NCBI GenBank assembly: GCA_937893835.1 | Contig: CALCSS010000024.1 | Coordinates: 1 to 62,854, forward strand | DNA from: an uncultured Fidelibacterota bacterium | GTDB taxonomy: Bacteria; Fidelibacterota; Marinisomatia; Marinisomatales; UBA1611 | DNA length: 62,854 nucleotides | Direction of reading: 5' to 3' | In this document: positions 7,578 through 32,572 of the stretch, piece after piece | Numbering within the stretch: the first letter of the stretch is position 1 | Layout of the letters: each line of letters starts with the position of its first letter | The notes under the pieces: generated by a model | What the model was told of the DNA's origin: nothing | Databases searched by the model: none | Seen by the model: only the letters and a program-made list of their open reading frames with translations | Position numbers and translations under genes: made by a program

Positions 7578-7677
7578 TATACTAATACAGAATAAGAAAC
7601 TAAATATATTGTCCTATTGATGAATAAATAAAATGATCTAATTGTTTATATCTAATCGTTCATTAACGATTATCTTA

Positions 7678-9951: not shown

Positions 9952-10003
9952 AGAGATGAATGGTTTATGTATGATAGATATTTAAAGCGGAAATCTGATA
10001 TAA

Positions 10004-16635: not shown

Positions 16636-16690
16636 TTGCAAAAAAATTTAAAGTTTATAAAAATAATTTGCAAAGTTTTACATTTTCAAG

Positions 16691-16720
16691 TTAGGTTTAC
16701 CTGAATATCAGAAAACCTAA
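16691..16720. promoter_or_regulatory. 8-bp perfect inverted repeat TTAGGTTT-N14-AAACCTAA in the divergent LacI / symporter intergenic region
   Basis: Read directly from the sequence. The location fits an operator, but an 8-bp stem is near chance expectation for a window of this size. Confidence 0.3.
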
Positions 16721-16744
16721 GCCTAAATACGCATATAATGGTCG

Positions 16745-16756
16745 TTGAACGTTATG
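16745..16756. promoter_or_regulatory. CG-centred imperfect palindrome TTGAACGTTATG, LacI-family operator-like
   Basis: Core AACGTT with flanks resembling the TGAAACGTTTCA-type half sites of LacI/PurR/FruR-family operators. Lies about 25 nt upstream of the symporter start. Confidence 0.3.
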
Positions 16757-16780
16757 TGCTATACCTTGAGAAGATAAACT

Positions 16781-18412: not shown

Positions 18413-18448
18413 AATTAATTAAAATGGAAAAAACAAGGAGTTAACAAA

Positions 18449-20902
18449 ATGAAAAAACTAATATCATCCTTTGCTGTTCTTTTACTACCTGTCTTTATAT
18501 ACGGACAAGTCATTGACAACTTTGAGGCTGAACCAGACACTAGTCATTGGGACTATGATATCTCTGCAAATGCAGATCCTGCATTAAGCTATGTGAATGA
18601 AAGTTATGTGACAGACCCGGTCAATGAAGGAAGCATGGCTCTGCAATTAGATTATAGTGCACACAATATCGAGTCTTGGGGTGGATATGCAAAGGTGTAT
18701 CACCTTCATCCAGATGTTGCAACAGGTGGTACCTATGATTGGACGGGATATGATTCCATATCTGTTTCTTATTATAATAGCAGTCCTCAGTCCGAGGCCG
18801 GCGCAGTTCACTTGAGACTCAATCTTAGTGACTATGCAGGTATCACTGATGATGCATATGTGGGACTTGGAGAGTATTATTACTCCTTTCTCTATATCTT
18901 GGACAATGAACCAGGTTGGAATACGGTCACAATGCCACTAGTGCGAAATGATTCTTGGGATGGTGGTGGTTTTAACCTGACCGGTTGGGCCGGGGATTCA
19001 GATGATGGAGAGCTCGATCTGCATGCGATTGGTGGTTTTCACTTTGAATTTTCCATTGGTGGAGCAGGTGAGGGCAACAGCTCTTCGGGTACCATCGTGC
19101 TTGATAATTTTACTTTGACCGGATACCAGGGAACTGACCTCGTAATATTCAATGGAATGAGCACTCCACCTGCTTGGGGGAATCCATTCTCATGGGGCGG
19201 AGCGCAGATGTACGTCACAGAAGGTGGCGGATATGATGAGGGTACAAACGCGTTGACCTATGTCCAGCAGGATGTTTGGTCAGGCGGTGGATTCAATATG
19301 GCGCCTGCAGTTGATTTTTCAAGTGGTGGAGAGTGGTCAAGTGACTCGCTATCATTTCATATGTGGTCAGAGGCAGATGCTCCTACTCTAAGACTTCAGT
19401 TTGAGGATGGTACTGACAAGGTTGGGCTGAACTTCACACCAGAGGCAGCAGAGGGCTGGAATCATTATAGTTTTCCTCTATCGGATTTTGTTTACTTTGA
19501 TGGCTCGACTGCTTTTGATACCAGTGCTGTGACCGTTTTTCAAGTTCTCTCAGAGGGCAATGGTGCCGCAGGCAGAACATTTCACTTTGATAATGTATGG
19601 ACAGGCAATCCAGACTTTGATGTAATTGCACCTGATGCACCTGAAAATGTCGGTGCGGTCCCTGCAGATTATTATAATCTTGTCACTTGGTCTGATGTGA
19701 GTGGAGAGAGTGACGAGCTCTATCATGTCTATGCCAGTGCCGATCCCATCACAGACGTTGATGCTGGCGGAGCAGAGCTCGTGGCCGCAAACGTGTTGGA
19801 AGGTTCACAAGCTGCAGTACATTATCTATATGCACCCCTGAATGATGCATCTGTATCTTACTACTACGCGGTTGTTTGTGTGGATGCGGCTGGGAATCGA
19901 AGCGAATTGGGTGCTTCAACCAGTTCCATTACAAATACCGCTCAGGGTATTCCAACCATATCGTTGGATGTTCCGGAAAACTTTGTTGCTGATGGAGACA
20001 TGAGCGAGTGGGAGGGTGTCATGCCCTTTGTCATCAATCCAACCACCGGACATGTGGCTGCAGGAACCGTAGATGGTGACGATGACCTGACAGGTACGGT
20101 CTATCTGGCAATAGATGATGACTATCTCTACTTCGCCGCTGACGTGATAGATGACTCCTACTCTTTTGGTGATGGTGACTGGTGGAATCAAGATGCACTA
20201 CAGTTTTTTATTGGACTATACGATTGGAGAGGACCAAAGCACTCTACTATCAGTCGTGGTGATGAACCAGACTATATCCTTTATGCCAATGAGTCAACTC
20301 TACAATTGGACATATCCAATGGTGGAAGTCTAGCAGCACCTGGGAGTGATGATTTTTATTTTGAGGGATTTAATCCGGACTATGCCACTGAGGGAAGGAT
20401 ATCATTGGATACTTTGGCAGCAGCAAATAATGATGAGAGGTTTCATCCTGTAAATGGAATGCGCATTCCACTAGACATCTATTTTCATGACCAGGACAAT
20501 GGTAGCTGGGAAGGGAATGTTGGTTTTTCTCATCTTGCTACAGACCAACAATGGAATAACCCGGGCGAGTGGGCATTTACCTGGATAGGAGATGCGTCTG
20601 TGGTATCAGGTGTGGATGATGAGCATAGCCTTGTTGCTGACGAATTTGTTCTTTATCCTAATTATCCTAATCCTTTCAATCCAGAGACCAATATCAGATT
20701 CTCTCTTCCAGAGGATCAGATCGTGACCCTGAACATATATAATATGACAGGTCAATTGGTAGAGAGCCTTGTCAATGAGAGACGATCGGCGGGTGTTCAT
20801 AGTGTTCACTGGAACGCATCAGGAGTTGCATCAGGGGTCTACCTGTATCAGTTGCAGGTAGGAGGAAGGTTCCTTACCCAGAAAATGATCCTGATGAAAT
20901 AA
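18449..20902 (+). CDS. T9SS-sorted surface protein with two CBM-like beta-sandwich modules, Fn3 and a CBM9-like module (candidate glycan-binding protein)
   Basis: AAGGAG RBS 8 nt upstream. Signal peptide. 'VIDNFEAEPD...IVLDNFTLTG' and 'FHFDNVWTG' module ends. CBM9-like 'DGDMSEWEGVMPFVIN...YLAIDDDYLYFAADV'. CTD at 20654-20902. Confidence 0.75.
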   Translation: MKKLISSFAVLLLPVFIYGQVIDNFEAEPDTSHWDYDISANADPALSYVNESYVTDPVNEGSMALQLDYSAHNIESWGGYAKVYHLHPDVATGGTYDWTGYDSISVSYYNSSPQSEAGAVHLRLNLSDYAGITDDAYVGLGEYYYSFLYILDNEPGWNTVTMPLVRNDSWDGGGFNLTGWAGDSDDGELDLHAIGGFHFEFSIGGAGEGNSSSGTIVLDNFTLTGYQGTDLVIFNGMSTPPAWGNPFSWGGAQMYVTEGGGYDEGTNALTYVQQDVWSGGGFNMAPAVDFSSGGEWSSDSLSFHMWSEADAPTLRLQFEDGTDKVGLNFTPEAAEGWNHYSFPLSDFVYFDGSTAFDTSAVTVFQVLSEGNGAAGRTFHFDNVWTGNPDFDVIAPDAPENVGAVPADYYNLVTWSDVSGESDELYHVYASADPITDVDAGGAELVAANVLEGSQAAVHYLYAPLNDASVSYYYAVVCVDAAGNRSELGASTSSITNTAQGIPTISLDVPENFVADGDMSEWEGVMPFVINPTTGHVAAGTVDGDDDLTGTVYLAIDDDYLYFAADVIDDSYSFGDGDWWNQDALQFFIGLYDWRGPKHSTISRGDEPDYILYANESTLQLDISNGGSLAAPGSDDFYFEGFNPDYATEGRISLDTLAAANNDERFHPVNGMRIPLDIYFHDQDNGSWEGNVGFSHLATDQQWNNPGEWAFTWIGDASVVSGVDDEHSLVADEFVLYPNYPNPFNPETNIRFSLPEDQIVTLNIYNMTGQLVESLVNERRSAGVHSVHWNASGVASGVYLYQLQVGGRFLTQKMILMK

Positions 20903-20921: not shown

Positions 20922-20957
20922 AAAGAAAGGCAGAATTTTTTCTGCCTTTCTTTTTGT
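20922..20957 (+). terminator. rho-independent terminator
   Basis: Perfect 13-bp stem AAAGAAAGGCAGA / TCTGCCTTTCTTT with 6-nt loop, followed by TTTTGTG. Far beyond chance. Confidence 0.8.
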
Positions 20958-21020: not shown

Positions 21021-23675
21021 ATGACTAGGCCTCTGCTGATTAGCTTATTTTTGTCACTGGTCTACTCCCAGACCACGGGCAAGATCTCAGGTGTGGTAAC
21101 CGATGGGGTAGAGACAAGTCCTTTACCCGGTGCCAATATCTATTTGGAGCAGACATCCTTTGGAGTAGCCTCCGATGGGTCAGGACGCTTTACTCTCATA
21201 AACATACCTCCAGGAAAATATGTTTTAAAAGTGGATATGATCGGCTATAAGTCTGTCCGGATGGAAAATGTCAATGTCTCTGTAAATCGAACCTTCTCAT
21301 TGAATGTTGAAATGGAGGCAACTGTGTTGGAGGGTGAGGTCGTTACTGTTGAAGTAGCAAGACTCGCTCAAAAAAAGGATCAGACAGGGACCATAAAGAA
21401 TATATCCGGTGACGAGATCAATGCTCTTCCAGTTGAGAGTGTTGGAGCGGTCGTCAATATGCAGGCCGGAGTTGTGAATGGTCATTTTCGAGGTGGTAGA
21501 AATACTGAGGTCACCTATATGGTCGATGGGGTCCAGGTAGATGAGGCCTTTGGTGGAGGCAGTGCAACGGTTGAGATACAGCCAGAGGCGGTTCAAGACC
21601 TAGAGGTCATAACAGGTACGTTCAATGCAGAATACGGACGAGCCATGAGTGGCGTTGTCAATGTGGTCACCAAGGACGGAGGCCCCAACTTTGAGGGTTT
21701 TGCGTCGTGGGGTGAGTCAACCTATTCTACAGACAATACAGATATATTCATAGGACTCTCACCTGAAATAAATAGAAGCTCTGACATCAAATTCAGTTTA
21801 GGCGGCCCTATCATTAGGGACAAAGTGACCTTCTTCACCAACATAAGAAAGCAGGAAAATCTTGGTCATTTAAATGGACTGAGACTTTTCCAAGTAGATG
21901 ACTATTCAAATTTTTATTCAGATGATCCCCTACTTTGGTATTCAGAGAAGACAGGTGACAGTAGTTATGTTCCAATGAATACAGGGGTAGGTATATCATC
22001 GCTTCTCAAACTAAGTTTTAATTTCATAAAGGGTATCCGTTTTTCAACTCTTTATTCTTACAGTGATGATTCTTGGTTTGGCTATGATCATGGTTTTAAA
22101 TACAATCCAGATGGCAGGGCTGAATCTGTGAAGTACACAAAGTACTATGCGTTCCAACTCAATCACATGATCTCACAAAATTTATTCTATGAGTTCAAAT
22201 ACTCCGTGACCAATAACGAATACGGTAGCTATGTATTTGAGGATGAATTTGATGGTGGCTATGTACACGATAGATACTTTGATAGTTACGGACCCGGGTT
22301 TTTAACTGGTGGCCAATCAAAGGATCACACAGTGCGTAAAATGATGGATAAAACCCTCAAGCTAGACGCGACATGGCAGGTGAACCATAATCATAGTTTC
22401 AAATCAGGTTTCCATTATTTTTCACATGATCTCGATAATCAATGGCATGCCATAAGAAACAAATATCATAATACTGCAAGCGACTCCATATACGAACCGG
22501 AGATCTTTGGAGATACGTCAGCCTATGCTGATGTTTACAAGGTATCTCCAAAAGAAGCAGCATTCTATATTCAGGACAAGATGGAGTTTGATGATATGGT
22601 TGTTAACATCGGTGTGCGATACGACCAGTTTGATCCTGAGAGCGATTTTCCCTCGGACAGAAGAAATCCAGCAAATCAATTGATCCTCCCTGACTCAATG
22701 ACAAGTCAGTATCCTCAGGCGCCTATCATTGAGCAGGTCAGTCCCAGGGTAGGTTTTGCATATCAACTTGGTAATCAGGCCGTGCTTCACTTCAGCTATG
22801 GTCATTTCTTCCAGATGCCACCAATGTATGCCATGTATCAAAACCATAGTTATCTGGTCGATCCAAATGATTTTGTCACTAGGATGGGAAATACACTGTT
22901 GGAACCAGAGAAGACCATCACCTATGAGATAGGACTCTGGCAGGAATTGAGTAGGCAGGTGAGCTTGGACATTGCTCTTTTCTATCGTGATATATACAAT
23001 CTGCTGACCACCAAGACCCTTTCCACATACAATCAGGTCAAGTATGGCCTCTACTCGAACAAGGACTATGGTAATGCTCGTGGACTGGAGATAAAACTAG
23101 ACCTGGCCCTTGGATCATTGAAAGGGATGGTCAATTATACACTACAATACACAAGAGGGAACGCAGACTCTCCTGGACAGACCTTTGATCGTGCAGGTAA
23201 CAATCAGGACCCAGTGAACCGGTTCATTCCCATGAGCTGGGACCAGCGTCACACTCTTAATGGTTCCTTGATGTATCTGAAAGAGAACCACGGTGCCACG
23301 ATCACTGCATATTACAATTCAGGTTCTCCATACACATTCTCTCCACAGAGCGAGAGCGTGCTATCAAGAATCAATCTATACCCGAACAATGATTACCGGC
23401 CCGAGAAATACTCTGTCGATGGTGCCTTCTACTATCGATTTAAGATCATGAAGGGTCTTAAGGCCACTCTGGACATCAACATATATAACATCTTCGATCG
23501 TTTGAATGAGGAATGGGTCAATGGTCAGACAGGTAGAGCATATACCGCTGTGATCAAGGAGACGGACATTGCCTCTCATCGTAGTGATTTCAATGAATAT
23601 GAGGATCGCATCGAGAATCCATCAATGTATTCTTCTCCCCGATCGATCAAAGTGGCACTAGGGGTCAACTTCTAA
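21021..23675 (+). CDS. TonB-dependent-receptor-like outer-membrane barrel with CarboxypepD_reg domain
   Basis: 'GKISGVVTDGVETSPLPGANIYLEQTSFGVASDGSGRFTLINIPPGKYVLKVDMIGYK'. Plug 'HFRGGRNTEVTYMVDGVQV'. C-terminal 'ALGVNF'. Confidence 0.8.
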   Translation: MTRPLLISLFLSLVYSQTTGKISGVVTDGVETSPLPGANIYLEQTSFGVASDGSGRFTLINIPPGKYVLKVDMIGYKSVRMENVNVSVNRTFSLNVEMEATVLEGEVVTVEVARLAQKKDQTGTIKNISGDEINALPVESVGAVVNMQAGVVNGHFRGGRNTEVTYMVDGVQVDEAFGGGSATVEIQPEAVQDLEVITGTFNAEYGRAMSGVVNVVTKDGGPNFEGFASWGESTYSTDNTDIFIGLSPEINRSSDIKFSLGGPIIRDKVTFFTNIRKQENLGHLNGLRLFQVDDYSNFYSDDPLLWYSEKTGDSSYVPMNTGVGISSLLKLSFNFIKGIRFSTLYSYSDDSWFGYDHGFKYNPDGRAESVKYTKYYAFQLNHMISQNLFYEFKYSVTNNEYGSYVFEDEFDGGYVHDRYFDSYGPGFLTGGQSKDHTVRKMMDKTLKLDATWQVNHNHSFKSGFHYFSHDLDNQWHAIRNKYHNTASDSIYEPEIFGDTSAYADVYKVSPKEAAFYIQDKMEFDDMVVNIGVRYDQFDPESDFPSDRRNPANQLILPDSMTSQYPQAPIIEQVSPRVGFAYQLGNQAVLHFSYGHFFQMPPMYAMYQNHSYLVDPNDFVTRMGNTLLEPEKTITYEIGLWQELSRQVSLDIALFYRDIYNLLTTKTLSTYNQVKYGLYSNKDYGNARGLEIKLDLALGSLKGMVNYTLQYTRGNADSPGQTFDRAGNNQDPVNRFIPMSWDQRHTLNGSLMYLKENHGATITAYYNSGSPYTFSPQSESVLSRINLYPNNDYRPEKYSVDGAFYYRFKIMKGLKATLDINIYNIFDRLNEEWVNGQTGRAYTAVIKETDIASHRSDFNEYEDRIENPSMYSSPRSIKVALGVNF

Positions 23676-26600
23676 TGCTACGTTCACTATATTATTTATT
23701 GTCTTTTATCTTATTCTCGTTCTTTCTTTTTGGACAAGGTAAGGAGTACGAAGGTCCTGAAGATCCTGCCGGTGATCCATCAGCAGAGCGTGAAGGATAT
23801 ATGACCGGGAACAGGGTACTGATCTATTTCAAGAACACCACGGAGATATCAGACTGGCCTGCAGTAAATGCATCCCGTTGGCCAAATAACAATGACGGCG
23901 TGAAGATGGTAGATGGCATTGGTCTCTTGGTCGGTGCAAAGGTATACATCCAAAATGATAGTCTCGAGTCAACGGTTGACACGATTCCTCTAACAGAGCT
24001 GATTGATATCTATACCCAAGACAAGCACACTCTTCACTATCTCCAGACGAGTTATAGGGAAGAGATGGATCGTGACCCAACAGGAACGGTCGAGTGGGGC
24101 TTCTACCCTGTATTTGGCTACTTTAATGAGGCAGACGAGTATCCGGCCGTATCCAATATTGAGAACTCTTGGCCTATTGGCGGATGGCCCTCAACAGGAT
24201 TGGAGACCAAGTGGCCAGGCGAGTGGAATGGTCGTTTTGGTCGTGGAGTGACCTACGCAGATCAGGAATGCTATTATGTGGTCAATGATGCTCAAGATCT
24301 AGAGTATCTAGGTGCTGAGGACAATGTCAAATATTTTCCACGTCCTGGTAAGCACATCGGTGATCTCAAGCCTGATGTTACAAAACAGGTCGGAGAGCCT
24401 TGGGGGGGGCTTGGTCTCAGAGTGGACGTACGTGGATTCCAATGGAACAATCCACAGGCCAGGGATGCTATATTTTGGGAATACTCCATCGCGAACATAT
24501 CAGACTATGACCTGAGGGATGTTGCCTTTGGCTATTGGGTTGATAATGGAATTGGTAATGACAACTCTGATGATATTGGATACTTCGATGTCGAGATCGA
24601 CATGTCCTATTCGTGGGATATTAATGGCATCGGCACAGGAGGACTTCCAACTGGGGTCATGGGTTTTGCATATCTTGAGAGCCCGGGACTTGCCTATGAC
24701 TATCAAGACAATGACTTTGATGGACTTACCGATGAGAAACGGGACAATGAGCCAACTGCCTTGGTGGGCCCTACGGATGGGATCACTGATATTGATGCCT
24801 TTCTTGAATTTTATAAATTAGAGCTTGAGGATCTAAAAGAACACTGGGACGCAGATGAGGACCAAGACTGGGAAGATGGTGAGGATCTGAATGGAGATGG
24901 TATCTATCAATTGGCAGAGTATTATGGGGATGACATTGGCATTGATGGAGTTGGACCTGGTGAATTGAATTATGATGGTCCCGATGCAGATGGTTCAGAA
25001 TGCAATCACAGACCTGACTTTGTTGAGGGTGTCGGTTGTGAGCCAAATTTCAATACTACTGATGTCTCCGAATCAGACATGGTCGGACTTACATCATTTA
25101 GAATGTTTCCCATACCGAGCCATGCCGCATCCAATGAGACAGAGTGGTTCAAGAATGATCAAGTGATGTGGGACCTTGTTGGTGGTGACACACTTGAGGA
25201 ATTTGAGGGTAATATTTCCAATTTGGTCGAGGTGTTTGCCTCAGGGCCCTTCCCACTCTATCAGGGCAGAGTAGAGAGGATATCCATGTCAGAATTACAC
25301 TCATATGACCCCCTGGCAGGTCTGAACTCTGATGATCATTCTGCTCCGGCCCTCTATGAGTTGAAGCGTATTGTGCAGGTGATCTATGAGAAGGACTATC
25401 GCTTTGCACAGCCACCTAAGATGCCTACTCTCACGGCCACAGCAGGAGATGGAGAGGTCATCTTGACCTGGGATGATATTTCAGATACCAGAACAAGAGA
25501 CCCCTTTGTTGGAAATATAAATGACTTTGAAGGTTATAAGGTCTATCGTGCAACAGATAAATATATGGCGGACCCTGAGATCATCACAGATGGGTATGGC
25601 ACGCCCATGTTCAAGAAACCATTGTACCTGTGTGACATGCTCGATCAAAGCCCACACAATCCCAATGAGACAAATGGTATGGTTCACCAGTGTAGCGGCT
25701 TCACTGACTATGGATTGGTGAATGGAACCGGATACAACCTTGGAAATAATTCAGGGATCAACCACATATTCGTGGACAATACGGTTCAAAACGGACGTAC
25801 CTATTACTATGCAATAGTCGCCTATGATTATGGGGCGCCAGACATCGGACCTGGTATCTCACCCTCTGAGAATAATGCAGTGATCGAGTTGGACGAGTAT
25901 GAGAATATTCGTTCCATTGGAAAGAACGTGGCCATTGTCGTGCCTCGTCAGTCTGCGGCAGGTTACATACCACCCAGTCTGGAGATGGAGGATATCGATC
26001 TCCTGGGATCTGGAACGGTCACTCCAATGATCAGAGCTCAAGGGAGCCTGAAGGAAGGGCATCAATATGCCGTTACATTTGGTGTGGATACCATAGCCGT
26101 GGTTAGTGGATACGATCATGGTTTCCAATATGTGACGGATGAGATCTTGGTCTATGATGTCACTGACAGCGTCTACCTTGTATATACAGAGAACTCGACA
26201 AAGTACATTGGTACTAATCTTATATTAAATGATGTTGTTGATGGGATACCAAATTATTGGACCTTGAATCCTGTTGGTACCATAGAGACAGATGTATTTG
26301 ATGGTCTCCAAATAGAGATTGATGATTACTTGGAGATACCAGAGTATAGATATGGAAACTCCGGCTGGGTCAATGGAGATGGGATCATGAGAGTAACACC
26401 ATCTGAGGCTGAAGGCATAAAAATGGCCTGGAAATATCAAGTTGTTTTCACTGATGATGATTCCGCCTATGTGGGTATGGCGTCAACTGGAACAGTTAGA
26501 GATGAACTAGGACAGTCGATTGGTACGCAAAAGATAATGAATCCAGCACTGAGTTTTTATGTGCAGAATACATCCTTTGTTGATTCGGCAGGGAACTATG

Positions 26601-27184
26601 AGTTAATGGATGCTGTCATATATGACCTTGATGATAATGATACGTTTGACATTTTCATTGATAAGATATTCATAGGAGCCACTGGAAGCAATCGCTGGAG
26701 AGGCACGGCCTTTGTCATTGACTTTCAACTTACTACTGAGTCAACATTCCCCCAGCCTGGAGATGTATATCAATTGGACTGGAAACGACCATTTTATGAG
26801 ACTGATACAATTCGATTTACCGTAAATGAGAATCAAGGCCTAGACACAGACGCCTTGGCAAGTGGCATGAAGAATATCAAAGTGGTGCCCAATCCATATG
26901 TAATGACGAATATGATGGAAGAGGCTGTCACGAATCCATATCTCAACCAAAGAAGAAAAATATTGTTCACTCATATTCCCGCTGAATGTACGATCAAGAT
27001 TTTCACGGTGAGTGGGGTCTTGGTCGATGAGATAAAAGTTCAGAATGAGCCAGACCAAGGAATTGTTCACTGGGACATGCTTACAAGAGAGAGCCTTGAG
27101 ATTGCTGCAGGTATGTATATATATCATATAGAGTCGAATGTCACAGGTGATTCCAAACTAGGAAAATTTGCGGTGATCAAATGA
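23675..27184 (+). CDS. 1169-aa secreted protein of unknown function with Asp-rich Ca-binding-type loops, Fn3 and a variant CTD-like C-terminus
   Basis: Start overlaps the TBDR stop (TAATG). Signal peptide. 'DNDFDGLTDEKRD' and 'DEDQDWEDGEDLNGDG'. Fn3 'GDGEVILTWDDISD...YKVYRA'. C-terminus 'IKVVPNPYVM...IKIFTVSGVLV...GMYIYHIE...FAVIK' (26873-27184). Confidence 0.8.
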   Translation: MLRSLYYLLSFILFSFFLFGQGKEYEGPEDPAGDPSAEREGYMTGNRVLIYFKNTTEISDWPAVNASRWPNNNDGVKMVDGIGLLVGAKVYIQNDSLESTVDTIPLTELIDIYTQDKHTLHYLQTSYREEMDRDPTGTVEWGFYPVFGYFNEADEYPAVSNIENSWPIGGWPSTGLETKWPGEWNGRFGRGVTYADQECYYVVNDAQDLEYLGAEDNVKYFPRPGKHIGDLKPDVTKQVGEPWGGLGLRVDVRGFQWNNPQARDAIFWEYSIANISDYDLRDVAFGYWVDNGIGNDNSDDIGYFDVEIDMSYSWDINGIGTGGLPTGVMGFAYLESPGLAYDYQDNDFDGLTDEKRDNEPTALVGPTDGITDIDAFLEFYKLELEDLKEHWDADEDQDWEDGEDLNGDGIYQLAEYYGDDIGIDGVGPGELNYDGPDADGSECNHRPDFVEGVGCEPNFNTTDVSESDMVGLTSFRMFPIPSHAASNETEWFKNDQVMWDLVGGDTLEEFEGNISNLVEVFASGPFPLYQGRVERISMSELHSYDPLAGLNSDDHSAPALYELKRIVQVIYEKDYRFAQPPKMPTLTATAGDGEVILTWDDISDTRTRDPFVGNINDFEGYKVYRATDKYMADPEIITDGYGTPMFKKPLYLCDMLDQSPHNPNETNGMVHQCSGFTDYGLVNGTGYNLGNNSGINHIFVDNTVQNGRTYYYAIVAYDYGAPDIGPGISPSENNAVIELDEYENIRSIGKNVAIVVPRQSAAGYIPPSLEMEDIDLLGSGTVTPMIRAQGSLKEGHQYAVTFGVDTIAVVSGYDHGFQYVTDEILVYDVTDSVYLVYTENSTKYIGTNLILNDVVDGIPNYWTLNPVGTIETDVFDGLQIEIDDYLEIPEYRYGNSGWVNGDGIMRVTPSEAEGIKMAWKYQVVFTDDDSAYVGMASTGTVRDELGQSIGTQKIMNPALSFYVQNTSFVDSAGNYELMDAVIYDLDDNDTFDIFIDKIFIGATGSNRWRGTAFVIDFQLTTESTFPQPGDVYQLDWKRPFYETDTIRFTVNENQGLDTDALASGMKNIKVVPNPYVMTNMMEEAVTNPYLNQRRKILFTHIPAECTIKIFTVSGVLVDEIKVQNEPDQGIVHWDMLTRESLEIAAGMYIYHIESNVTGDSKLGKFAVIK

Positions 27185-28236
27185 TGAAGGCCCTACAAAG
27201 AATATTGATTTTTTGTTTTATCATCATCATGCCTTTAGAGGCACAGATGATCAATAGATATGGTACCACCGCTGCAAATTTCCTTGAGATAGGCGTTGGC
27301 AGTGATGGCAGTGCCATGGGTGAGGCTTTTGTTGCGGTGACCAGCGGCATCTCTTCCATTTACTGGAACCCCGCAGGTCTTGCAAACCTTGAGAGGTCAA
27401 CGGTTGCCTTTATGATGCATCCTTGGATCGTTGATATCAATATGCTGTTCACAGGTGGTGCGTTCATTGTCCCGGGAGTCGGGAATATAGGGTTTGGTAT
27501 CACTCAAATGGACTATGGTGAGATGCCTGTGACGACCCTTGAATATCAGGAGGGCACAGGTGAGAACTTTACTGCAAGTGACATGGCCGCCACCTTGACA
27601 TTTTCACGTAAGATCGTCTCCTGGTTTGCATTTGGATCATCACTAAAATACATCAGATCAAATATTTGGCACAGTTCAGCAAATTCCTTTGCAGTCGATC
27701 TTGGCGTACTGGTAAATACAAAATTTTTCTCTTTTACAGGAAATGATAAAGACGGAATGAATATTGGAATGAGTATATCCAATTACGGTACAAGGATGAG
27801 GTTTGATGGTATTGATATCTATCAGCCGGTGGACATATCAGAATACGAGGAAGGCAACTATGGTGATGTCGCAGGTCAATTCAGACCATCGGAATGGGAA
27901 TTACCATTGATCTTTAGGATCGGAATTGCACTGAAACCTATTGTGAACAATTTTTCTAGGGTCACTGTTGCAGTTGATGCGCTACACCCCAATAATAATT
28001 CTGAGTCCATAAACGTTGGTTGTTCGATGGATAACAATATTCCAGGATTTGGTATGTTTAGTTTAAGAGGCGGGGTCAAGGCACTCTATATGGATAGTCC
28101 TCAGTATGGATATACGGGTGGCCTAGGTCTCGAGATGTTCTATATTGGAAATCGATCGCTGTCCATAGACTACGCATATAAGAGCATGGGCATATTGGGA
28201 GATGTTCATGTTTATACTGTGGGTTTTTCTTTCTGA
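27181..28236 (+). CDS. PorV/PorQ-family-like outer-membrane beta-barrel (T9SS accessory type)
   Basis: N-terminus 'YGTTAANFLEIGVGSDGSAMGEAFVAVTSGISSIYWNPAGLANLE' matches my recollection of the PorV/PorQ signature. Beta-rich, ends 'YTVGFSF'. Start overlaps the upstream stop. Confidence 0.65.
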   Translation: MMKALQRILIFCFIIIMPLEAQMINRYGTTAANFLEIGVGSDGSAMGEAFVAVTSGISSIYWNPAGLANLERSTVAFMMHPWIVDINMLFTGGAFIVPGVGNIGFGITQMDYGEMPVTTLEYQEGTGENFTASDMAATLTFSRKIVSWFAFGSSLKYIRSNIWHSSANSFAVDLGVLVNTKFFSFTGNDKDGMNIGMSISNYGTRMRFDGIDIYQPVDISEYEEGNYGDVAGQFRPSEWELPLIFRIGIALKPIVNNFSRVTVAVDALHPNNNSESINVGCSMDNNIPGFGMFSLRGGVKALYMDSPQYGYTGGLGLEMFYIGNRSLSIDYAYKSMGILGDVHVYTVGFSF

Positions 28237-28242
28237 TAACCT

Positions 28243-29712
28243 ATGGTACGGGCTCTGTCCTGCTTCGCACTTATTGTAATAATACCTAACTGTTCTGGTC
28301 ATAAGGACTCGGTCAAAGGTGATCAGATCCTTGCCTATGTTGGAGATAGGACCATTACCATTCAAGACTTCTTAAGAAGGGCTGAATATTCGATAAGACC
28401 TGCTTATTGCCGCCAGTCCAACTATTTACATAAAAAGATCGTGTTGAATTCATTGATCGCTGAGAAGATGACAGGTCTGGAGATGGATACAAAAAAGGAC
28501 GATCTTTTGGAAAGTTCTAATTTTAAGAAATTTCTAAAGGGTAGAACGGAACAGGCAATGCGTCAGGTCTTCTATAATGATTCCTTTTATGATTCAGTCT
28601 CACTATCGGACGATGATATAAGGGAACGCTATCTACTTTCAGGCAGGACCATTCAAATAGATTATCTGAGTTTACCAGATATGGAGATGGTTCAGAAGTT
28701 CAAACAGCTTCTTGATGGTGGGATGCCCTTGGACTCGATCTATTCATATCTTTGGCAGGGTGACGTACCTTCAAGAACTATTAATTGGTTTGATCGAGAG
28801 CCAAAGATGATCCACGATGGCCTTTTCAGAGAAGATCTGGAAAAGGGTGAGATCATTGGACCATTCAAGGCAGATGATGGTACCTACCTAGTGATCGAGG
28901 TAAGGGGCTGGTCCGATCAACCTGTGATCACACAAGACCAGCAAGATCTACGTTGGAATGATGTTAGTGATAGATTGAAAGAGACTAGTGCCACGGGTCA
29001 GTTTAAGGATTATGTTGAAAATTTGATGAAAGATAAAAAAATGGATCTAGAACCAGAGACATTCAATTCATATGCTTCGATCGCAGGTGATCATTATCTA
29101 AGAGATGAAGAAGAGAAGAAGATAGCAATTGATCAGGCTATATGGGATAACGCTGAGCAAATCGACCTGAGACCCTTTGACAATAGGGCAGGTCTTGATC
29201 TATCGGCGACCTTATTTCGATATGATGGCAAAAATTATAGTGTCGGAGACTTCAATGATATGTTGAGATCACATCCTCTTGTTTTTCGAAAGAGAAAGAT
29301 GAACAAGGGGGAATTCCGATCACAACTAAAATTCGCGATCGCTGATCTATTGAGAGACATGGAATTGACTCGAGTATGCTATGATAAAGGCCTGGACAGT
29401 GACTGGAGAGTGGAGTCCAATGTGTTTCTATGGGAGGATGCATATGCCAGCAGGAGATATATGGAGATAAATGGTCTAGATGACAATGCAACAGAGCAAG
29501 AGTCACTTGATCTTTTTGGTTCTATCATTGATTCATTACAGGAAGCATATTCAAATAAGATCAAGATAAATATGGATGCCTTTGAGACGCTTGAACTCAC
29601 ATCAACTGACATGCTGGTCACTCAAAGGGGCTTGCCATATCCGATAGTTGTTCCATCATTTCCTATTTTAACGTCTGATAACCGATTAGATTATGGATCA
29701 ATATTAAAATAG
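28243..29712 (+). CDS. SurA/PpiD-like periplasmic chaperone lipoprotein (degenerate parvulin region)
   Basis: Lipobox-like 'IIPNCSG'. SurA-N-like 'ILAYVGDRTITIQDFLRRAEYS'. Parvulin-tail-like 'GEIIGPFKADDGTYLVIEVRG'. Confidence 0.45.
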   Translation: MVRALSCFALIVIIPNCSGHKDSVKGDQILAYVGDRTITIQDFLRRAEYSIRPAYCRQSNYLHKKIVLNSLIAEKMTGLEMDTKKDDLLESSNFKKFLKGRTEQAMRQVFYNDSFYDSVSLSDDDIRERYLLSGRTIQIDYLSLPDMEMVQKFKQLLDGGMPLDSIYSYLWQGDVPSRTINWFDREPKMIHDGLFREDLEKGEIIGPFKADDGTYLVIEVRGWSDQPVITQDQQDLRWNDVSDRLKETSATGQFKDYVENLMKDKKMDLEPETFNSYASIAGDHYLRDEEEKKIAIDQAIWDNAEQIDLRPFDNRAGLDLSATLFRYDGKNYSVGDFNDMLRSHPLVFRKRKMNKGEFRSQLKFAIADLLRDMELTRVCYDKGLDSDWRVESNVFLWEDAYASRRYMEINGLDDNATEQESLDLFGSIIDSLQEAYSNKIKINMDAFETLELTSTDMLVTQRGLPYPIVVPSFPILTSDNRLDYGSILK

Positions 29713-29715
29713 ATC

Positions 29716-31512
29716 ATGCGATATATTATTTTAATCAATTTTTTGGTCGGTCTATGTCAGGCTCAACTTTACAGAGGTGCCGAGCTTAGGACACTGGAAC
29801 CTGTTCTCTATGGAAAATTCGAGGCAAGATATAAGCCTGCCCAAGGAGATGGTGTTCTGTCCTCATTTTTCACCTATAATGACAGTTGTTGTTCTGAAAC
29901 ACCGTGGAATGAGATCGACATTGAACTTCTTGGAAGATATGACCATGTGATCGACTTTAATACCATTACCTGGGGACAAAGTTCGCACATTCGTCAGCAT
30001 TACATTCCATTTAATCCTCATGTGGATTTTCATACATATGGTTTTGAATGGACCCCCGACTACGTTGCTTGGTTCATTGATGGTGAGGAGGTGTATAGGC
30101 AGACCGGTGGACATATTGATGAGATGCACTATTCACAGAAGATAATGATGAACATTTGGAATCCGGTCTATGATGATTGGGTCGGCATTTGGGATGAGAG
30201 AGTATTACCAAGATTTGCATTCTACGACCATGTCAGCTATGCATCGTATACCCCTGGTGAGGGCAATGTGGGGACTGATTCCAATTTTACATTGGCATGG
30301 CAAGATGATTTTGATTCCTTTGATTCCACTCGCTGGGAAAAAAGCGATGACCATACATGGGGCGGGAACCAATCATTGTTCATAGAGGAGAATGTTGTTT
30401 ACCAGGATGGATATATGATCCTTTGCTTGACCAATCTATCCGAAACTGGATTGGTTGACAATACAATACCGTCTGCGCTTTGGGCAAGGCACCATGGGTA
30501 CTCGATCGACATGCGTTTTTCAGAGGAAATAGGCTTATCCAGTTCTGAGGACATCAATAATTACAGTCTGGCAAACACCACTATCAACAGCGCAGAATTA
30601 TTGGAGGATCGACGCTCTGTTACCCTTACGATGGATAGTGAACAATTTGATGCAGCAAATATGGGAGTGTTTAACATAGAGGATGATAATGTTCCACCAA
30701 ATTCAATTGATTGGCAGATCGTGTGGATCGACTCGCCAGAGCCAATGAGTTACGCGCTGATCAATGTAGGTGGTGATAGTATGTCGATCTACTCGACCGA
30801 TCAGGTGTGGAGTTCTAGTGTTCAATATGGTCACGAGGGAGGAAATTATCAGGTGATCGATGAGTCTATTGATATTGTTGGTACGACAAATGATGACATC
30901 TACAGATCGTCATTGAATCGAGTTGCAGGGTACAAGGTCCGCCTGGTCCCAGGTTTTTATAATTTGAATCTTATGTTCTCTGATAACCACTATTCACAGC
31001 CTGGTGATCGAAAATTTGATATTACCATTGAAGATAGCCTTTGGGTGAATGATCTGGATGTCATAGGGGAGGTAGGGCACACAACCGCACACAATGTGCT
31101 TCTTGATAGAGTTTTGGTTGCAGATGGCACCTTGGATATCTATTTCTCTGCAGAGGTATATGGAACTGGATATTCTCATGCCGGTCCATTTCTCAATGGG
31201 ATGGAGATTGGGCTTGATGAGCCACTATCTGTTGTGTCAAATACACCAATGCAATTTAATTTCAAGGCACCATATCCAAACCCTTTTAACAATAAGATCA
31301 CCATACCAATTGAAATGATAAATGATACTCAAGTGAGGGTTGATGTCATTGATGCAGCTGGTAGAGTAGTTGATACTATATTTGATGGAATGATGTCAAC
31401 TGGGAGTCATCAATTGGAATGGAATAGTAAGAGCCAGGCAAGTGGCATGTATATCATTAGAACAACCGTTGGTAAGGTTAATCATTATGAAAAGACCATT
31501 CTACTTAAATAG
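29716..31512 (+). CDS. GH16 beta-glucanase (Fibrobacter-type lichenase-like) + malectin-like domain + T9SS CTD
   Basis: 'YGKFEARYK...LSSFFTY', catalytic 'WNEIDIELLG', 'FHTYGFEWTPDYVAWFIDG', 'FTLAWQDDFDSFDSTRWEK'. Malectin-like 'YRSSLNRVAGYKVRLVPGFYNLNLMFSDNHYSQPGDRKFDITIED'. CTD at 31267-31512. Confidence 0.85.
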   Translation: MRYIILINFLVGLCQAQLYRGAELRTLEPVLYGKFEARYKPAQGDGVLSSFFTYNDSCCSETPWNEIDIELLGRYDHVIDFNTITWGQSSHIRQHYIPFNPHVDFHTYGFEWTPDYVAWFIDGEEVYRQTGGHIDEMHYSQKIMMNIWNPVYDDWVGIWDERVLPRFAFYDHVSYASYTPGEGNVGTDSNFTLAWQDDFDSFDSTRWEKSDDHTWGGNQSLFIEENVVYQDGYMILCLTNLSETGLVDNTIPSALWARHHGYSIDMRFSEEIGLSSSEDINNYSLANTTINSAELLEDRRSVTLTMDSEQFDAANMGVFNIEDDNVPPNSIDWQIVWIDSPEPMSYALINVGGDSMSIYSTDQVWSSSVQYGHEGGNYQVIDESIDIVGTTNDDIYRSSLNRVAGYKVRLVPGFYNLNLMFSDNHYSQPGDRKFDITIEDSLWVNDLDVIGEVGHTTAHNVLLDRVLVADGTLDIYFSAEVYGTGYSHAGPFLNGMEIGLDEPLSVVSNTPMQFNFKAPYPNPFNNKITIPIEMINDTQVRVDVIDAAGRVVDTIFDGMMSTGSHQLEWNSKSQASGMYIIRTTVGKVNHYEKTILLK

Positions 31513-32572
31513 CACCATAACCGTATTCCTTTTGGTATCTGTAGCATCCTCAAAGCCATATAGAGGAGGTGAGTTACGGACGATAGACACCTACCGATAC
31601 GGTAGATATGAGGTCAGCATGAGATCTGCCTCAGGTAGCGGAATTGTAAGTTCTTTTTTCACCTATCGTGATTATTGGGCAGAGGGCTTGAGTGGATCAC
31701 GGCATTGGAACGAGATCGATTGGGAGATATTGGGTCAACATGAGGATGAGGCCTCAACAAATCTCATCATACAGAACCAATGGGACTATGTTCAGGAATT
31801 GGACCTTGACTTCAATCCGCATGAGGGTCTCCACACTTATGCAATTGAGTGGACTCCAGATAATGTCCTCTTTTTCATTGATGATGACCTGGTTCGAACC
31901 GTTGATAATTTTTATGCCGACTCCATGTATCACTACCAAAAGATCATGATGAATCTCTGGCAGCCCACTGCATCGAGTTGGGTAGGTACATTTGATTCTG
32001 ATATCTTACCGGTCTACGCTTTCTATGATTGGGTAAAATATTATGCATATGTACCAGGCTCGGGAAATACAGGAACGAACAACGATTTCATTCTTCTATG
32101 GACCGATGATTTCGATTATATGGATCCTAACCGTTGGGAGCGCGCTACGCATACCTTTGACGGGAATAATGTAGACTTCATTGAGGAAAATGTCGTATTC
32201 CAGTACGGACATATGATACTGTGTTTGACGACCCCAGGAGACACAGGATATAATGGTGATCCCTTGAAGACCACATCAACCACCGGACTACCATACTCCA
32301 TCTCAATGGGTAGGGCCTATCCAAACCCATTTAATCATAATATCACGTTTCCATTGACCCTCAATGGCGAAGGCTCGATCGAGTATGCCATATATGATAT
32401 CAATGGGAGGATCGTTACGGTTGGACACAACAGGCTTGGATCAAGCAGAGATAGGTCCATCCACTGGAATGGTATGCGCCAGGATGGTACCCCTGTCCCA
32501 TCAGGGACCTATTTCTTCAAATTGATCAATGATGACATTGCGCTCACTCAAAAGATCCTCTATCTAAAATGA
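31487..32572 (+). CDS. GH16 beta-glucanase (paralog of the preceding gene) + T9SS CTD
   Basis: 'YGRYEVSMR...VSSFFTY', catalytic 'HWNEIDWEILG', 'LHTYAIEWTPDNVLFFIDD'. CTD at 32315-32572. Start taken at ATG 31487 ('MKRPFYLNSTITVFLLVSVASS' signal peptide) rather than the track's GTG at 31442. Confidence 0.85.
   Translation: MKRPFYLNSTITVFLLVSVASSKPYRGGELRTIDTYRYGRYEVSMRSASGSGIVSSFFTYRDYWAEGLSGSRHWNEIDWEILGQHEDEASTNLIIQNQWDYVQELDLDFNPHEGLHTYAIEWTPDNVLFFIDDDLVRTVDNFYADSMYHYQKIMMNLWQPTASSWVGTFDSDILPVYAFYDWVKYYAYVPGSGNTGTNNDFILLWTDDFDYMDPNRWERATHTFDGNNVDFIEENVVFQYGHMILCLTTPGDTGYNGDPLKTTSTTGLPYSISMGRAYPNPFNHNITFPLTLNGEGSIEYAIYDINGRIVTVGHNRLGSSRDRSIHWNGMRQDGTPVPSGTYFFKLINDDIALTQKILYLK

What the first reader, a model, noticed from the sequence alone, without database searches (positions are those of the whole stretch)
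21021..29712. Translationally coupled TBDR / 1169-aa CTD-variant protein / PorV-like barrel / SurA-like chaperone module: a possible locus-private outer-membrane capture and anchoring complex
The TBDR stop overlaps the next start (TAATG at 23673-23677). The 1169-aa gene's stop overlaps the PorV-like start (ATG 27181 / TGA 27182-27184). The chaperone-like gene follows after 6 nt and the first CTD-bearing GH16 after 3 nt. In the established T9SS model, PorV is a FadL-like barrel that binds CTD cargo leaving the translocon, and it is normally a single housekeeping gene. Here a PorV/PorQ-like paralog is encoded inside a glycan operon. It lies directly after a huge protein with a divergent CTD ('VVPNPY...') and directly before CTD-tagged hydrolases. 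This suggests either a dedicated shuttle or anchor that holds the 1169-aa protein, and possibly the enzymes, next to the TBDR, or a functional replacement of SusD by a TBDR-giant protein-PorV assembly. I know of no described system with this composition.
Basis: inference. Interest (0 to 1): 0.75.

Follow-up and report, generated by a model that had tools for sequence, protein, structure and literature searches.

The report
SusD-less glycan importer with PorV-like anchor
In this SAR406 (Marinimicrobia) beta-glucan operon, a TonB-dependent outer-membrane receptor is encoded with a giant surface protein, that protein's own PorV-like barrel and a SurA-like chaperone; the same undescribed gene set recurs in over a hundred sugar-utilisation loci of related phyla and probably does the job SusD does in Bacteroides.

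Summary
Four tightly packed genes encode:
- a TonB-dependent receptor (TBDR) with a SusC-type N-terminal domain;
- a 1169-aa all-beta protein ("BIG") with no Pfam match;
- a PorV/PorQ-family barrel (NF033709, 189.5 bits against a cutoff of 90), which is not a PorV, PorQ or PorV2 ortholog;
- a 489-aa lipoprotein whose AlphaFold model matches PrsA and SurA.

CTD-tagged GH16 and GH5 enzymes follow.

The BIG C-terminus is homologous to ordinary T9SS type-A C-terminal sorting domains (CTDs) (hhalign 97%). It is nevertheless a distinct, highly conserved variant: VVPNPY, a roughly 20-aa insert, and a GKFAVIK end.

The gene order is not private to this genome. Across 160 loci from Marinimicrobia, Ignavibacteriota, Calditrichota, Rhodothermales, Bacteroidota MAGs, KSB1 and Krumholzibacteriia:
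- a PorV-family gene follows 127 of 137 BIG-type CTDs;
- a TBDR precedes 81 of 86 BIG genes;
- neighbouring genes are varied CAZymes, and SusD was not among their commonest families.

Best reading, by inference: BIG is exported by the T9SS and held on its cognate barrel beside the TBDR, where it acts as a SusD analogue. No paper describing this module was found. It is a new variant of known kinds. The physical complex is unproven.

The parts
20922..20953 (+). Intrinsic-terminator-like hairpin (14-bp stem plus T run) that ends the upstream CBM9/CTD gene; the TBDR therefore starts a new transcription unit
   Evidence: sequence
21021..23675 (+). TonB-dependent receptor, 884 aa. It has a signal peptide, a carboxypeptidase-regulatory-like N-terminal extension (res 22-110), a TonB-box-like GEVVTVEV at res 105-112, a plug and a barrel. 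It is not a SusC/RagA-family member.
   Evidence: TIGR04056 67 bits against a cutoff of 368.25
23675..27184 (+). BIG, a 1169-aa secreted all-beta multidomain protein with no Pfam family. It has a signal peptide, an N-terminal beta domain interrupted by acidic DxDxDG Ca-binding-like loops (res ~341-475), an FN3-like domain (~583-725), variable beta-sandwiches (~726-1055) and a variant CTD.
26879..27181 (+). Variant T9SS-type C-terminal domain of BIG (res 1069-1169): VVPNPY, a ~20-aa low-confidence insert with an invariant Glu and a near-invariant Arg (nt 26900-26956), a beta-sandwich core and a GKFAVIK end. It is the most conserved part of the protein.
27181..28236 (+). PorV/PorQ-family outer-membrane barrel, 351 aa. 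It belongs to a distinct subfamily that is always encoded next to BIG.
28243..29712 (+). SurA/PrsA-like chaperone, 489 aa, a probable lipoprotein (invariant Cys17). Its parvulin domain is too diverged for Pfam to detect in this lineage.
29716..31512 (+). GH16 + malectin + ordinary type-A CTD (secreted beta-glucanase)
31442..32572 (+). GH16 + ordinary type-A CTD. The true start is probably the internal ATG near 31487.
32569..33783 (+). GH16 without a CTD (probably periplasmic)
33765..35783 (+). GH5 + CBM6/35 + ordinary type-A CTD
13617..20902 (.). Accessory genes of the same beta-glucan locus: GH3 (13617-15650, -), LacI-family regulator (15628-16641, -), sodium:solute symporter (16781-18412, +), CBM9 + CTD protein (18449-20902, +)

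Best explanation
The four genes form a conserved outer-membrane module that is the core of SusD-less polysaccharide-utilisation loci in non-Bacteroidia FCB bacteria.

Proposed mechanism:
1. BIG crosses the inner membrane through Sec and leaves the cell through the T9SS.
2. Its variant C-terminal domain is recognised by the co-encoded PorV/PorQ-family barrel rather than by housekeeping PorV. BIG stays bound to that barrel, as PorZ stays on PorQ, PorU on PorV and SprB on SprF. The barrel therefore serves as both carrier and membrane anchor.
3. This places BIG at the cell surface next to the co-translated TonB-dependent receptor. There BIG captures oligosaccharides released by the T9SS-secreted GH16 and GH5 enzymes and hands them to the receptor, which is the job SusD and the SGBPs do in Bacteroides.
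4. The SurA/PrsA-like lipoprotein helps fold or assemble the barrel(s) or BIG.
5. Periplasmic GH16 and GH3 and the Na+/solute symporter finish uptake.

Shown: the gene identities; the CTD homology and its variant signature; the exclusive pairing of the variant CTD with the PorV-like gene; near-invariant linkage to a TBDR; the CAZyme context.

Inferred: T9SS export, CTD retention, barrel docking, contact with the TBDR, glycan binding.
For: - PorV/PorQ family membership is met in the window and in 59 of 59 neighbours of BIG homologues.
- The BIG C-terminus is homologous to local type-A CTDs (hhalign 97.1%) and is predicted as a seven-strand sandwich. The only PDB sequence hits of the whole-family profile are the PorZ and PorU CTDs, and these are also the top Foldseek hits.
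- The variant CTD is the most conserved region of BIG: top-residue frequency 0.60 for the core and 0.91 for VVPNPY, against 0.32 for the variable sandwiches.
- The two CTD classes separate cleanly. 141 C-termini score 118-146 bits on the BIG-type model and no more than 27 bits on the ordinary model, and all 141 are BIG proteins. More than 136 neighbouring proteins carry ordinary CTDs.
- In the window there is one BIG-type CTD, one PorV-family gene and eight ordinary CTDs.
- Linkage: a PorV-family gene starts within 500 nt downstream of 127 of 137 BIG-type CTDs, and a TBDR ends within 600 nt upstream of 81 of 86 BIG genes. The reciprocal search from the PorV-like side gives BIG immediately upstream in 53 of 59 loci, and the other six have a TBDR immediately upstream; in two of those six BIG lies just downstream of the PorV-like gene.
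- In the permuted orders seen (BIG-TBDR-PorV, TBDR-PorV-BIG) all three genes still stay adjacent.
- Context: of 79 neighbours, 35 carry Por_Secre_tail; GH13/CBM20, GH2, GH3, GH16, GH9, SBPs and LacI also occur; SusD is not among the 25 commonest families.
- The chaperone fold is shown. It lies immediately downstream of the PorV-like gene in 34 of 52 close relatives.
- Precedents for cognate barrel and retained-CTD pairs, and for FadL-type barrels as platforms: PMC10202324, PMC10994853, PMC12578637.
Against: - BIG scores below the curated CTD threshold (TIGR04183 18.9 bits against 23) and has no PF18962 hit.
- Ordinary CTDs from the window also hit PorU and PorZ, so the PorZ/PorU resemblance does not by itself indicate retention.
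- No carbohydrate-binding module or other known domain was recognised in BIG.
- BIG is all-beta and is not homologous to SusD.
- No multimer prediction, proteomics or genetics was available.
- T9SS core genes are not in the window.
- The cellular side on which the chaperone lipoprotein sits is unknown.
- Genome-wide counts of PorV paralogues could not be made.
Confidence: 0.55

Rival explanations
1. The PorV-like barrel is only a transient, cargo-specific shuttle. It carries BIG out of the SprA translocon. BIG's CTD is then cleaved by PorU, and BIG is either attached to LPS or released. There is no stable barrel anchor and no obligatory contact with the TBDR.
For: This is the canonical role of PorV for type-A cargo (PMC10994853). 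The BIG CTD is homologous to type-A CTDs.
Against: The variant CTD is unusually well conserved across phyla and contains a conserved insert. It has a strict one-to-one genomic pairing with the barrel. Both features fit a lasting, specific interface better than they fit transit. The known dedicated barrels (PorQ, SprF) keep their partners (PMC10202324).
Confidence: 0.2
2. BIG and its barrel form an independent surface adhesin or scaffold, for example a Ca-dependent glycan- or particle-binding protein. It is co-regulated with the TBDR but does not work in physical partnership with it.
For: BIG resembles multi-sandwich adhesins and S-layer proteins in the Foldseek search. It has acidic Ca-binding-like loops.
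Against: TBDR adjacency is near-invariant (81 of 86) and survives gene-order permutations. The start-stop overlap with the TBDR gene suggests stoichiometric co-production. Only the TBDR next to BIG, among the four in the window, has a PorV-like gene.
Confidence: 0.1
3. BIG is an unrecognised carbohydrate-active enzyme, and the module is mainly a secretion and anchoring device for it.
For: Many Asp, Glu and Trp residues are invariant in the N-terminal domain. The family has no annotation.
Against: The same conserved core occurs in loci for chemically different glycans: GH13/CBM20, GH16, GH2 and GH9. That is unlike a substrate-specific enzyme. No catalytic fold was detected.
Confidence: 0.08
4. 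The 351-aa barrel works as a FadL-type diffusion channel that is independent of the T9SS, and the BIG C-terminus is merely a generic Ig-like domain.
For: There are weak Toluene_X/FadL Pfam hits. 10 of 59 relatives weakly hit BamG.
Against: The protein scores far better on the PorV/PorQ family model (59 of 59). The BIG C-terminus is specifically homologous to T9SS CTDs. By the submitters' labels, all but one of the labelled loci (L058, Victivallales) come from FCB lineages, and these loci are rich in CTD cargo.
Confidence: 0.07

Closest known systems
SusC/SusD (TBDT plus SGBP-A) core of Bacteroidota polysaccharide utilisation loci
   Same: The TBDR gene comes first and is followed at once by a gene for a large surface protein. 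The TBDR has the SusC-type carboxypeptidase-regulatory N-terminal extension. The pair is embedded among CAZymes, a regulator and an inner-membrane sugar transporter, and each glycan locus has its own copy.
   Different: The TBDR fails the SusC/RagA model (67 bits against 368.25). The partner is a 1169-aa all-beta protein with a T9SS-type CTD, not an alpha-helical TPR lipoprotein. A third obligatory gene (the PorV/PorQ-family barrel) and often a fourth (the SurA-like protein) are present. SusD was not among the 25 commonest families in 79 neighbours.
T9SS cargo and carrier/anchor pairs: PorZ-PorQ and PorU-PorV (P. gingivalis attachment complex), SprB-SprF and other type-B CTD / PorP-SprF pairs (F. 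johnsoniae)
   Same: A protein with a special C-terminal domain is encoded next to its own FadL/PorV-type barrel. The BIG CTD profile's best PDB hits are the PorZ and PorU CTDs, and BIG ends in GKFAVIK where PorZ ends in RFAVIR. The barrel belongs to the PorV/PorQ family.
   Different: The barrel is not a PorV, PorQ or PorV2 ortholog (82, 80 and 54 bits against cutoffs of 250, 220 and 325). The BIG CTD is a type-A derivative with a ~20-aa insert, and no type-B CTD model was matched. The pair is fused into a TonB-dependent nutrient-uptake operon, an arrangement described in none of the papers retrieved. Ordinary CTDs also hit PorU and PorZ.
BamG-BamH of the Bacteroidota BAM complex (PMC12578637)
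   Same: A 14-stranded FadL-family barrel acts as a platform for a large extracellular protein, and peptidyl-prolyl isomerases form part of the assembly. 10 of 59 PorV-like relatives weakly hit the BamG model.
   Different: BamG is an essential housekeeping protein associated with BamA. Its partner is a lipoprotein, not a CTD protein. It is not linked to TBDRs or CAZymes.
Cytophaga hutchinsonii chu_1276-1280 'atypical PUL' (PMC12016534)
   Same: It is a SusD-independent locus with a TBDT-like barrel, a further outer-membrane protein and beta-sandwich glycan-binding proteins, and it is needed for cellulose use.
   Different: Its described composition is two ~375-aa-class SGBP-B-like proteins. 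No ~1100-aa CTD protein, PorV-family barrel or SurA-like gene is reported. The relationship was not tested here.
SurA / PrsA / PEB4 parvulin-type chaperones
   Same: The AF2 model of the 489-aa protein matches PrsA, BAM-bound SurA, PEB4 and LIC12922 at probability 1.0. 17 of 26 relatives hit Rotamase_2 and 7 of 26 hit SurA_N_3. Like PrsA, it has a lipobox Cys.
   Different: The window protein has no Pfam, NCBIfam or PDB sequence hit of its own. It is locus-specific rather than housekeeping. PPIase activity is doubtful.

Membership tests
PorV/PorQ family (NCBIfam NF033709) | Whole-protein HMM score at or above the curated cutoff (90 bits) | tested here: met
   189.5 bits, full-length match 1-326 of 326. 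59 of 59 BIG-adjacent relatives match.
PorV/PorQ family (NCBIfam NF033709) | 14-stranded FadL-like outer-membrane barrel | not tested
   Indirect evidence only: weak Pfam PorV and Toluene_X hits and a PDB PorV hit, 6h3i_F, at E=5.8e-9 over residues 8-213.
PorV proper (NF033710), PorQ (NF033711), PorV2 (NF052325) equivalogs | Score at or above the equivalog cutoff (250, 220 and 325 bits) | tested here: not met
   82.4, 79.8 and 54 bits. The protein is therefore a separate subfamily, not the housekeeping PorV or PorQ.
T9SS type-A C-terminal sorting domain (TIGR04183 / PF18962) | HMM score at or above the curated cutoff | tested here: not met
   TIGR04183 gives 18.9 bits against 23, E=1.1e-3; there is no PF18962 hit.
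T9SS type-A C-terminal sorting domain (TIGR04183 / PF18962) | Homologous beta-sandwich at the extreme C-terminus | tested here: met
   hhalign of the BIG-CTD profile against the window's seven type-A CTDs gives 97.1% probability, E=6.1e-11. AF2 predicts seven strands at 1069-1167. PDB profile hits are the PorZ and PorU CTDs.
T9SS type-A C-terminal sorting domain (TIGR04183 / PF18962) | Export depends on the T9SS, and the CTD is processed or retained | not testable with these tools
   This needs genetics or proteomics.
Type-B CTD cargo with a PorP/SprF carrier | A TIGR04131-type CTD and an adjacent PorP/SprF-family barrel | tested here: not met
   Neither protein hit a type-B CTD or PorP/SprF model at E<=0.01. 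The logic is analogous, but these proteins are not members.
SusC/RagA TonB-linked outer-membrane protein (TIGR04056) | HMM score at or above 368.25 bits | tested here: not met
   67.1 bits, confined to the N-terminal 200 residues.
SusC/RagA TonB-linked outer-membrane protein (TIGR04056) | Carboxypeptidase-regulatory N-terminal extension, TonB box, plug and 22-strand barrel | tested here: met
   PF13715, PF07715 and PF00593 all match. GEVVTVEV lies at residues 105-112. The strand count was not tested.
SusC/RagA TonB-linked outer-membrane protein (TIGR04056) | An adjacent SusD/RagB-family gene | tested here: not met
   The next gene (BIG) has no Pfam family. SusD was not among the 25 commonest families in 79 neighbours of related loci.
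SusD/RagB | TPR-rich alpha-helical lipoprotein matching the SusD Pfam families | tested here: not met
   BIG has no SusD hit, is almost entirely beta and has an ordinary signal peptide rather than a lipobox.
SurA/PrsA/PpiD-type chaperone | N- and C-terminal helical chaperone module flanking a parvulin-like domain | tested here: met
   Foldseek gives probability 1.0 to PrsA (4wo7), SurA in BAM-SurA (9hg7_F), PEB4 (3rfw) and isolated parvulins. The model has pLDDT 79 and pTM 0.78.
SurA/PrsA/PpiD-type chaperone | Sequence match to the Rotamase or SurA_N families | tested here: inconclusive
   The window protein has none. 17 of 26 locus-linked relatives hit Rotamase_2 and 7 of 26 hit SurA_N_3.

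The most novel reading that the evidence does not exclude
BIG-type CTD proteins and their co-encoded PorV/PorQ-family barrels would be a further, undescribed class of T9SS cargo-carrier pairing, alongside type A with PorV, PorZ with PorQ, and type B with PorP/SprF. On this reading the pair is used to build a three-component (TBDR, BIG, barrel) TonB-dependent glycan importer. That importer would replace SusCD across Marinimicrobia (SAR406), Ignavibacteriota, Calditrichota, Rhodothermales, KSB1 and related lineages, with a dedicated SurA-like assembly factor.
Probability: 0.5. Interest if true: 0.85.

Novelty: new variant of a known kind. Interest (0 to 1): 0.72.

Why it matters
SusCD pairs are the defining signature used to find polysaccharide-utilisation loci, and the loci examined here would be missed by that criterion. 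SusD was not among the commonest families next to these modules. The lineages include SAR406, one of the most abundant deep-ocean bacterial clades.

A conserved module of TBDR, giant CTD protein and PorV-like barrel would give three things:
- a genomic marker for PUL-like loci in these lineages;
- a concrete, testable answer to how their TonB-dependent receptors capture glycans;
- a new functional role for the PorV/PorQ barrel family and for T9SS C-terminal domains, as built-in anchors of nutrient-uptake machines rather than only secretion signals.

BIG is a large protein family with no annotation at all: 375 clusters at 50% identity with E<=1e-30 and 1384 with E<=1e-10. Cultured Rhodothermus marinus appears to carry the same gene arrangement beside its xylanase (Rmar_1070-1072, listed only as hypothetical proteins in PMC6987092). 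If so, experiments are feasible.

Tried and rejected
- Sequence searches of BIG against Pfam, NCBIfam and PDB found nothing outside the C-terminal domain.
- Whole-model Foldseek gave only low-TM, generic multi-sandwich matches apart from PorZ and PorU.
- I considered that the PorZ/PorU hits might mark a 'retained' class of CTD. A control with the window's ordinary CTDs also hit PorU (E=1.3e-5) and PorZ (E=7.8e-4), so I do not rely on this.
- My first neighbourhood count, based on greedy ORF calling, undercounted PorV adjacency (50 of 63). The 'exceptions' were artefacts. The count was redone with six-frame HMM searches.
- 'BIG' labels on small ORFs proved to be CTD-only cross-hits. For the same reason, the figure of 3152 clusters at E<=1e-3 overstates the size of the family.
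- The mafft --auto iteration timed out. The 59-sequence PorV alignment was too diverse for pattern search and was replaced by an 8-sequence alignment.
- The sigma-70 promoter scan did not exceed the shuffled controls (48 sites against a mean of 50.9). It is in any case not suited to FCB promoters.
- Rfam found nothing in the window.
None found a paper describing the module.
- The C. hutchinsonii chu_1276-1280 locus was considered as a possible characterised example. It was rejected as the same system because its described composition differs.
- The statement that Melioribacter roseus has 'SusCDE' (PMC3534657) could not be checked against this module.

Full report
**1. Observation**

- ORFs: 21021-23675 (884 aa), 23675-27184 (1169 aa), 27181-28236 (351 aa), 28243-29712 (489 aa), 29716-31512 (598 aa).
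- Junctions: a TAATG overlap at 23673-23677, an ATGA overlap at 27181-27184, and gaps of 6 nt and 3 nt.
- A strong terminator-like hairpin at 20922-20953 precedes the TBDR.
- The genes then run without a gap larger than 74 nt to 35783, so they are most simply read as one operon.

Names attached to close homologues place the window in Candidatus Marinimicrobia / Neomarinimicrobiota (SAR406).

**2. What the genes are**

Gene 1 is a TonB-dependent receptor.
- It has a carboxypeptidase-regulatory-like N-terminal extension, a plug and a barrel, and a TonB-box-like GEVVTVEV at residues 105-112.
- It is not a SusC/RagA-family member (67 bits against a cutoff of 368.25).

Gene 3 matches the PorV/PorQ family model NF033709 over its full length, at 189.5 bits against a cutoff of 90.
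- It falls far below the equivalog cutoffs for PorV (82 against 250), PorQ (80 against 220) and PorV2 (54 against 325).
- It also matches the solved F. johnsoniae PorV at E=5.8e-9.
- It is therefore a distinct subfamily of the PorV/PorQ barrels.

Gene 4 has no Pfam, NCBIfam or PDB sequence match.
- Its AlphaFold2 model (pLDDT 79, pTM 0.78) matches PrsA, BAM-bound SurA, PEB4, LIC12922 and isolated parvulins at Foldseek probability 1.0.
- Of 26 locus-linked relatives from other phyla, 17 hit Rotamase_2 and 7 hit SurA_N_3.
- An invariant Cys17 follows a hydrophobic stretch, which indicates a lipoprotein.

The rest of the locus makes sense as a beta-glucan system:
- downstream: GH16 + malectin + CTD, GH16 + CTD, GH16 without a CTD, and GH5 + CBM6 + CTD;

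**3. The 1169-aa protein (BIG)**

BIG has a Sec signal peptide and no Pfam family. It belongs to a large, wholly unannotated family: 375 clusters at 50% identity with E<=1e-30 and 1384 with E<=1e-10. The count at E<=1e-3 is inflated by CTD-only cross-hits.

The AF2 model is good (pLDDT 80, pTM 0.67) and almost entirely beta. Its parts are:
- an N-terminal domain interrupted by acidic DxDxDG-type loops;
- an FN3-like domain;
- poorly conserved beta-sandwiches at about residues 831-1055;
- a short helix;
- a seven-strand C-terminal sandwich.

The C-terminal domain scores just below the curated CTD threshold (TIGR04183, 18.9 bits against 23). A profile of it nevertheless aligns to the seven ordinary type-A CTDs of this window at 97.1% probability, E=6e-11. 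The only PDB sequence hits of the family profile are the CTDs of PorZ and PorU, and these are also the top two Foldseek hits. A control shows that ordinary CTDs hit PorU and PorZ too, so I read this as 'T9SS CTD' and not as proof that the domain is retained.

Three features set the domain apart:
- It has a signature conserved across phyla: VVPNPY, a ~20-residue insert of low model confidence with an invariant Glu and a near-invariant Arg, F-T-H-L-P-x-x-C-T-I-R-I-Y-T, and a GKFAVIK end.
- It is the most conserved part of the protein.
- It separates cleanly from ordinary CTDs. In 160 loci, 141 C-termini score 118-146 bits on the BIG-type model and no more than 27 bits on the ordinary model. All 141 are BIG proteins, and more than 136 neighbouring proteins carry ordinary CTDs.

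In the window there is exactly one BIG-type CTD, one PorV-family gene, eight ordinary CTDs and four TBDR-like genes. Only the TBDR next to BIG has a PorV-like gene.

**4. Conservation**

A scan of one genome per species with a BIG-family alignment returned 80 loci. By the submitters' labels they come from Marinimicrobia, Ignavibacteriota (including Melioribacteraceae), Calditrichota, Rhodothermales, Bacteroidota MAGs (Cytophagia, Chitinophagales), KSB1, Krumholzibacteriia and others.

Counts from six-frame HMM searches:

| Set | PorV-family gene starts within 500 nt downstream of a BIG-type CTD | TBDR ends within 600 nt upstream of BIG |
|---|---|---|
| 80 genome loci | 65 of 70 | 54 of 57 |
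| All 160 loci | 127 of 137 | 81 of 86 |

- An earlier, lower count was an ORF-calling artefact.
- The reciprocal search from the PorV-like protein in metagenome contigs found BIG immediately upstream in 53 of 59 loci. The other six have a TBDR immediately upstream; in two of them BIG lies just downstream of the PorV-like gene (TBDR-PorV-BIG), and in two BIG precedes the TBDR (BIG-TBDR-PorV).
- Tandem BIG genes ahead of a single barrel also occur (L119, L160).
- The SurA-like gene lies immediately downstream of the barrel in 34 of 52 close relatives and within three genes in 41 of 52. It is present somewhere in 28 of 75 of the more distant genome loci, often just upstream of the TBDR.
- All 59 adjacent barrels match NF033709.
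- Of 79 flanking proteins, 35 carry Por_Secre_tail. The rest include GH13/CBM20, glucoamylase, GH2, GH3, GH16, GH9, solute-binding proteins and LacI regulators. No SusD family is among the 25 most frequent.

The module is therefore the shared core of PUL-like loci for different glycans.

**5. Mechanism**

The best-supported reading is a three-component outer-membrane importer.
- BIG is exported by the T9SS.
- Its variant CTD is recognised by, and remains docked on, its cognate PorV/PorQ-family barrel.
- This holds BIG beside the TonB-dependent receptor, where it captures oligosaccharides made by the secreted GH16 and GH5 enzymes.
- The SurA/PrsA-like lipoprotein assists assembly.

The logic rests on four points:
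- the exclusive one-to-one pairing of the variant CTD with the barrel;
- conservation of the CTD and of a predicted-disordered insert, which is what a fixed protein interface would produce;
- near-invariant linkage to a TBDR that survives permutation of gene order, with start-stop overlaps;
- established precedents for barrels that keep their partners. These are PorZ-PorQ, PorU-PorV and type-B cargo with PorP/SprF (PMC10202324, PMC10994853), and BamG as a platform for BamH alongside surface PPIases (PMC12578637).

Export, retention, docking, TBDR contact and glycan binding are all inferred. I put this reading at about 0.55. The main rival is that the barrel is only a transient, dedicated shuttle (0.2). 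Minor rivals are an independent adhesin or scaffold, a cryptic enzyme, and a T9SS-independent FadL-type channel.

**6. Comparison with known systems and novelty**

- The module works like SusCD but is not a member of that family. The TBDR fails TIGR04056, BIG is not SusD-like, and two extra genes are involved.
- It works like a T9SS cargo-carrier pair but fits none of the described classes. The barrel is not PorV, PorQ, PorV2 or PorP, and the CTD is a type-A derivative that falls below the type-A threshold.
- The C. hutchinsonii chu_1276-1280 'atypical PUL' has a different described composition.
- Ten literature searches found no description of this module.
- The R. marinus xylan locus lists Rmar_1070 (TBDR), Rmar_1071 (hypothetical, with a Por CTD) and Rmar_1072 (hypothetical) without comment. 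This is probably the same triad in a cultured organism, but I could not test it by sequence.

I classify the finding as a new variant of known kinds (PUL-type TBDT systems and T9SS carrier pairs), with high interest for the T9SS, PUL and marine-carbon fields.

**7. Verdict**

However, the module is widespread rather than unique to this genome, the enzymes are unlikely clients of the barrel, and the physical complex is unproven.
- Interest: 0.72.

Noticed in passing
window 41350-42489 (+), TGA at 41521-41523: An Omp28-related selenoprotein gene. The in-frame TGA lies in the motif TGLQ-U-PYCP (UxxC). The part after the TGA matches NF045500 at 468 bits. ORF callers split the gene at the TGA. No Rfam SECIS match at E<=1.
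   Followed up: partly
window 37639-41140 (+): A second TBDR (812 aa, with the CarbopepD_reg extension) overlaps a 357-aa Cys- and Asp-rich ORF with no family match, just upstream of the selenoprotein. This may be another outer-membrane module. It has no BIG and no PorV-like gene.
   Followed up: no
window 35857-37047 (+): A 396-aa, highly acidic lipoprotein (LLLAGC lipobox) with three internal repeats of CF-LV-PITF-MPDGS-TVE-GW-WY-EN. It ends the beta-glucan operon and its function is unknown. The only Pfam hits are spurious low-complexity matches.
   Followed up: no
window 13617-15650 (-): A GH3 beta-glucosidase with an EF-hand pair inserted in the C-terminal domain (residues ~460-513).
   Followed up: no
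window 2823-13591 (-): Three genes on the minus strand: a CotH kinase-like + lamin-tail + CTD protein (1195 aa); a TBDR-like gene with an N-terminal extension and plug but no Pfam barrel hit (757 aa); and a 1584-aa PGA_cap + PKD + dockerin protein.
   Followed up: no
L012, L113, L128, L138, L145, L160; L017, L029, L119: Variants of the module. Gene order is permuted (BIG-TBDR-PorV, TBDR-PorV-BIG), two BIG genes sit in tandem ahead of one PorV-like gene (L119, L160; in L017 an ordinary-CTD protein intervenes), and in L029 a second TBDR-BIG pair directly follows a complete module.
   Followed up: partly
window 28243-29712 compared with L007, L010, L012 and other relatives: The Marinimicrobia SurA-like proteins have lost any detectable Rotamase or SurA_N sequence signal, which relatives from other phyla keep (17 of 26 and 7 of 26). 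This suggests a degenerate parvulin domain, giving a chaperone without isomerase activity.
   Followed up: partly
L065:226-1791, L066:4497-6506, L014:109-1104: A few shorter proteins share N-terminal or central regions with BIG but end in an ordinary-type CTD. They may be paralogues that use housekeeping PorV.
   Followed up: no
window 31442-31512 and 33765-33783: The mechanically called GTG starts of the second GH16 and of the GH5 overlap the preceding genes by 71 nt and 19 nt. The real starts are probably internal; for the GH16, the ATG near 31487 precedes a signal peptide.
   Followed up: no
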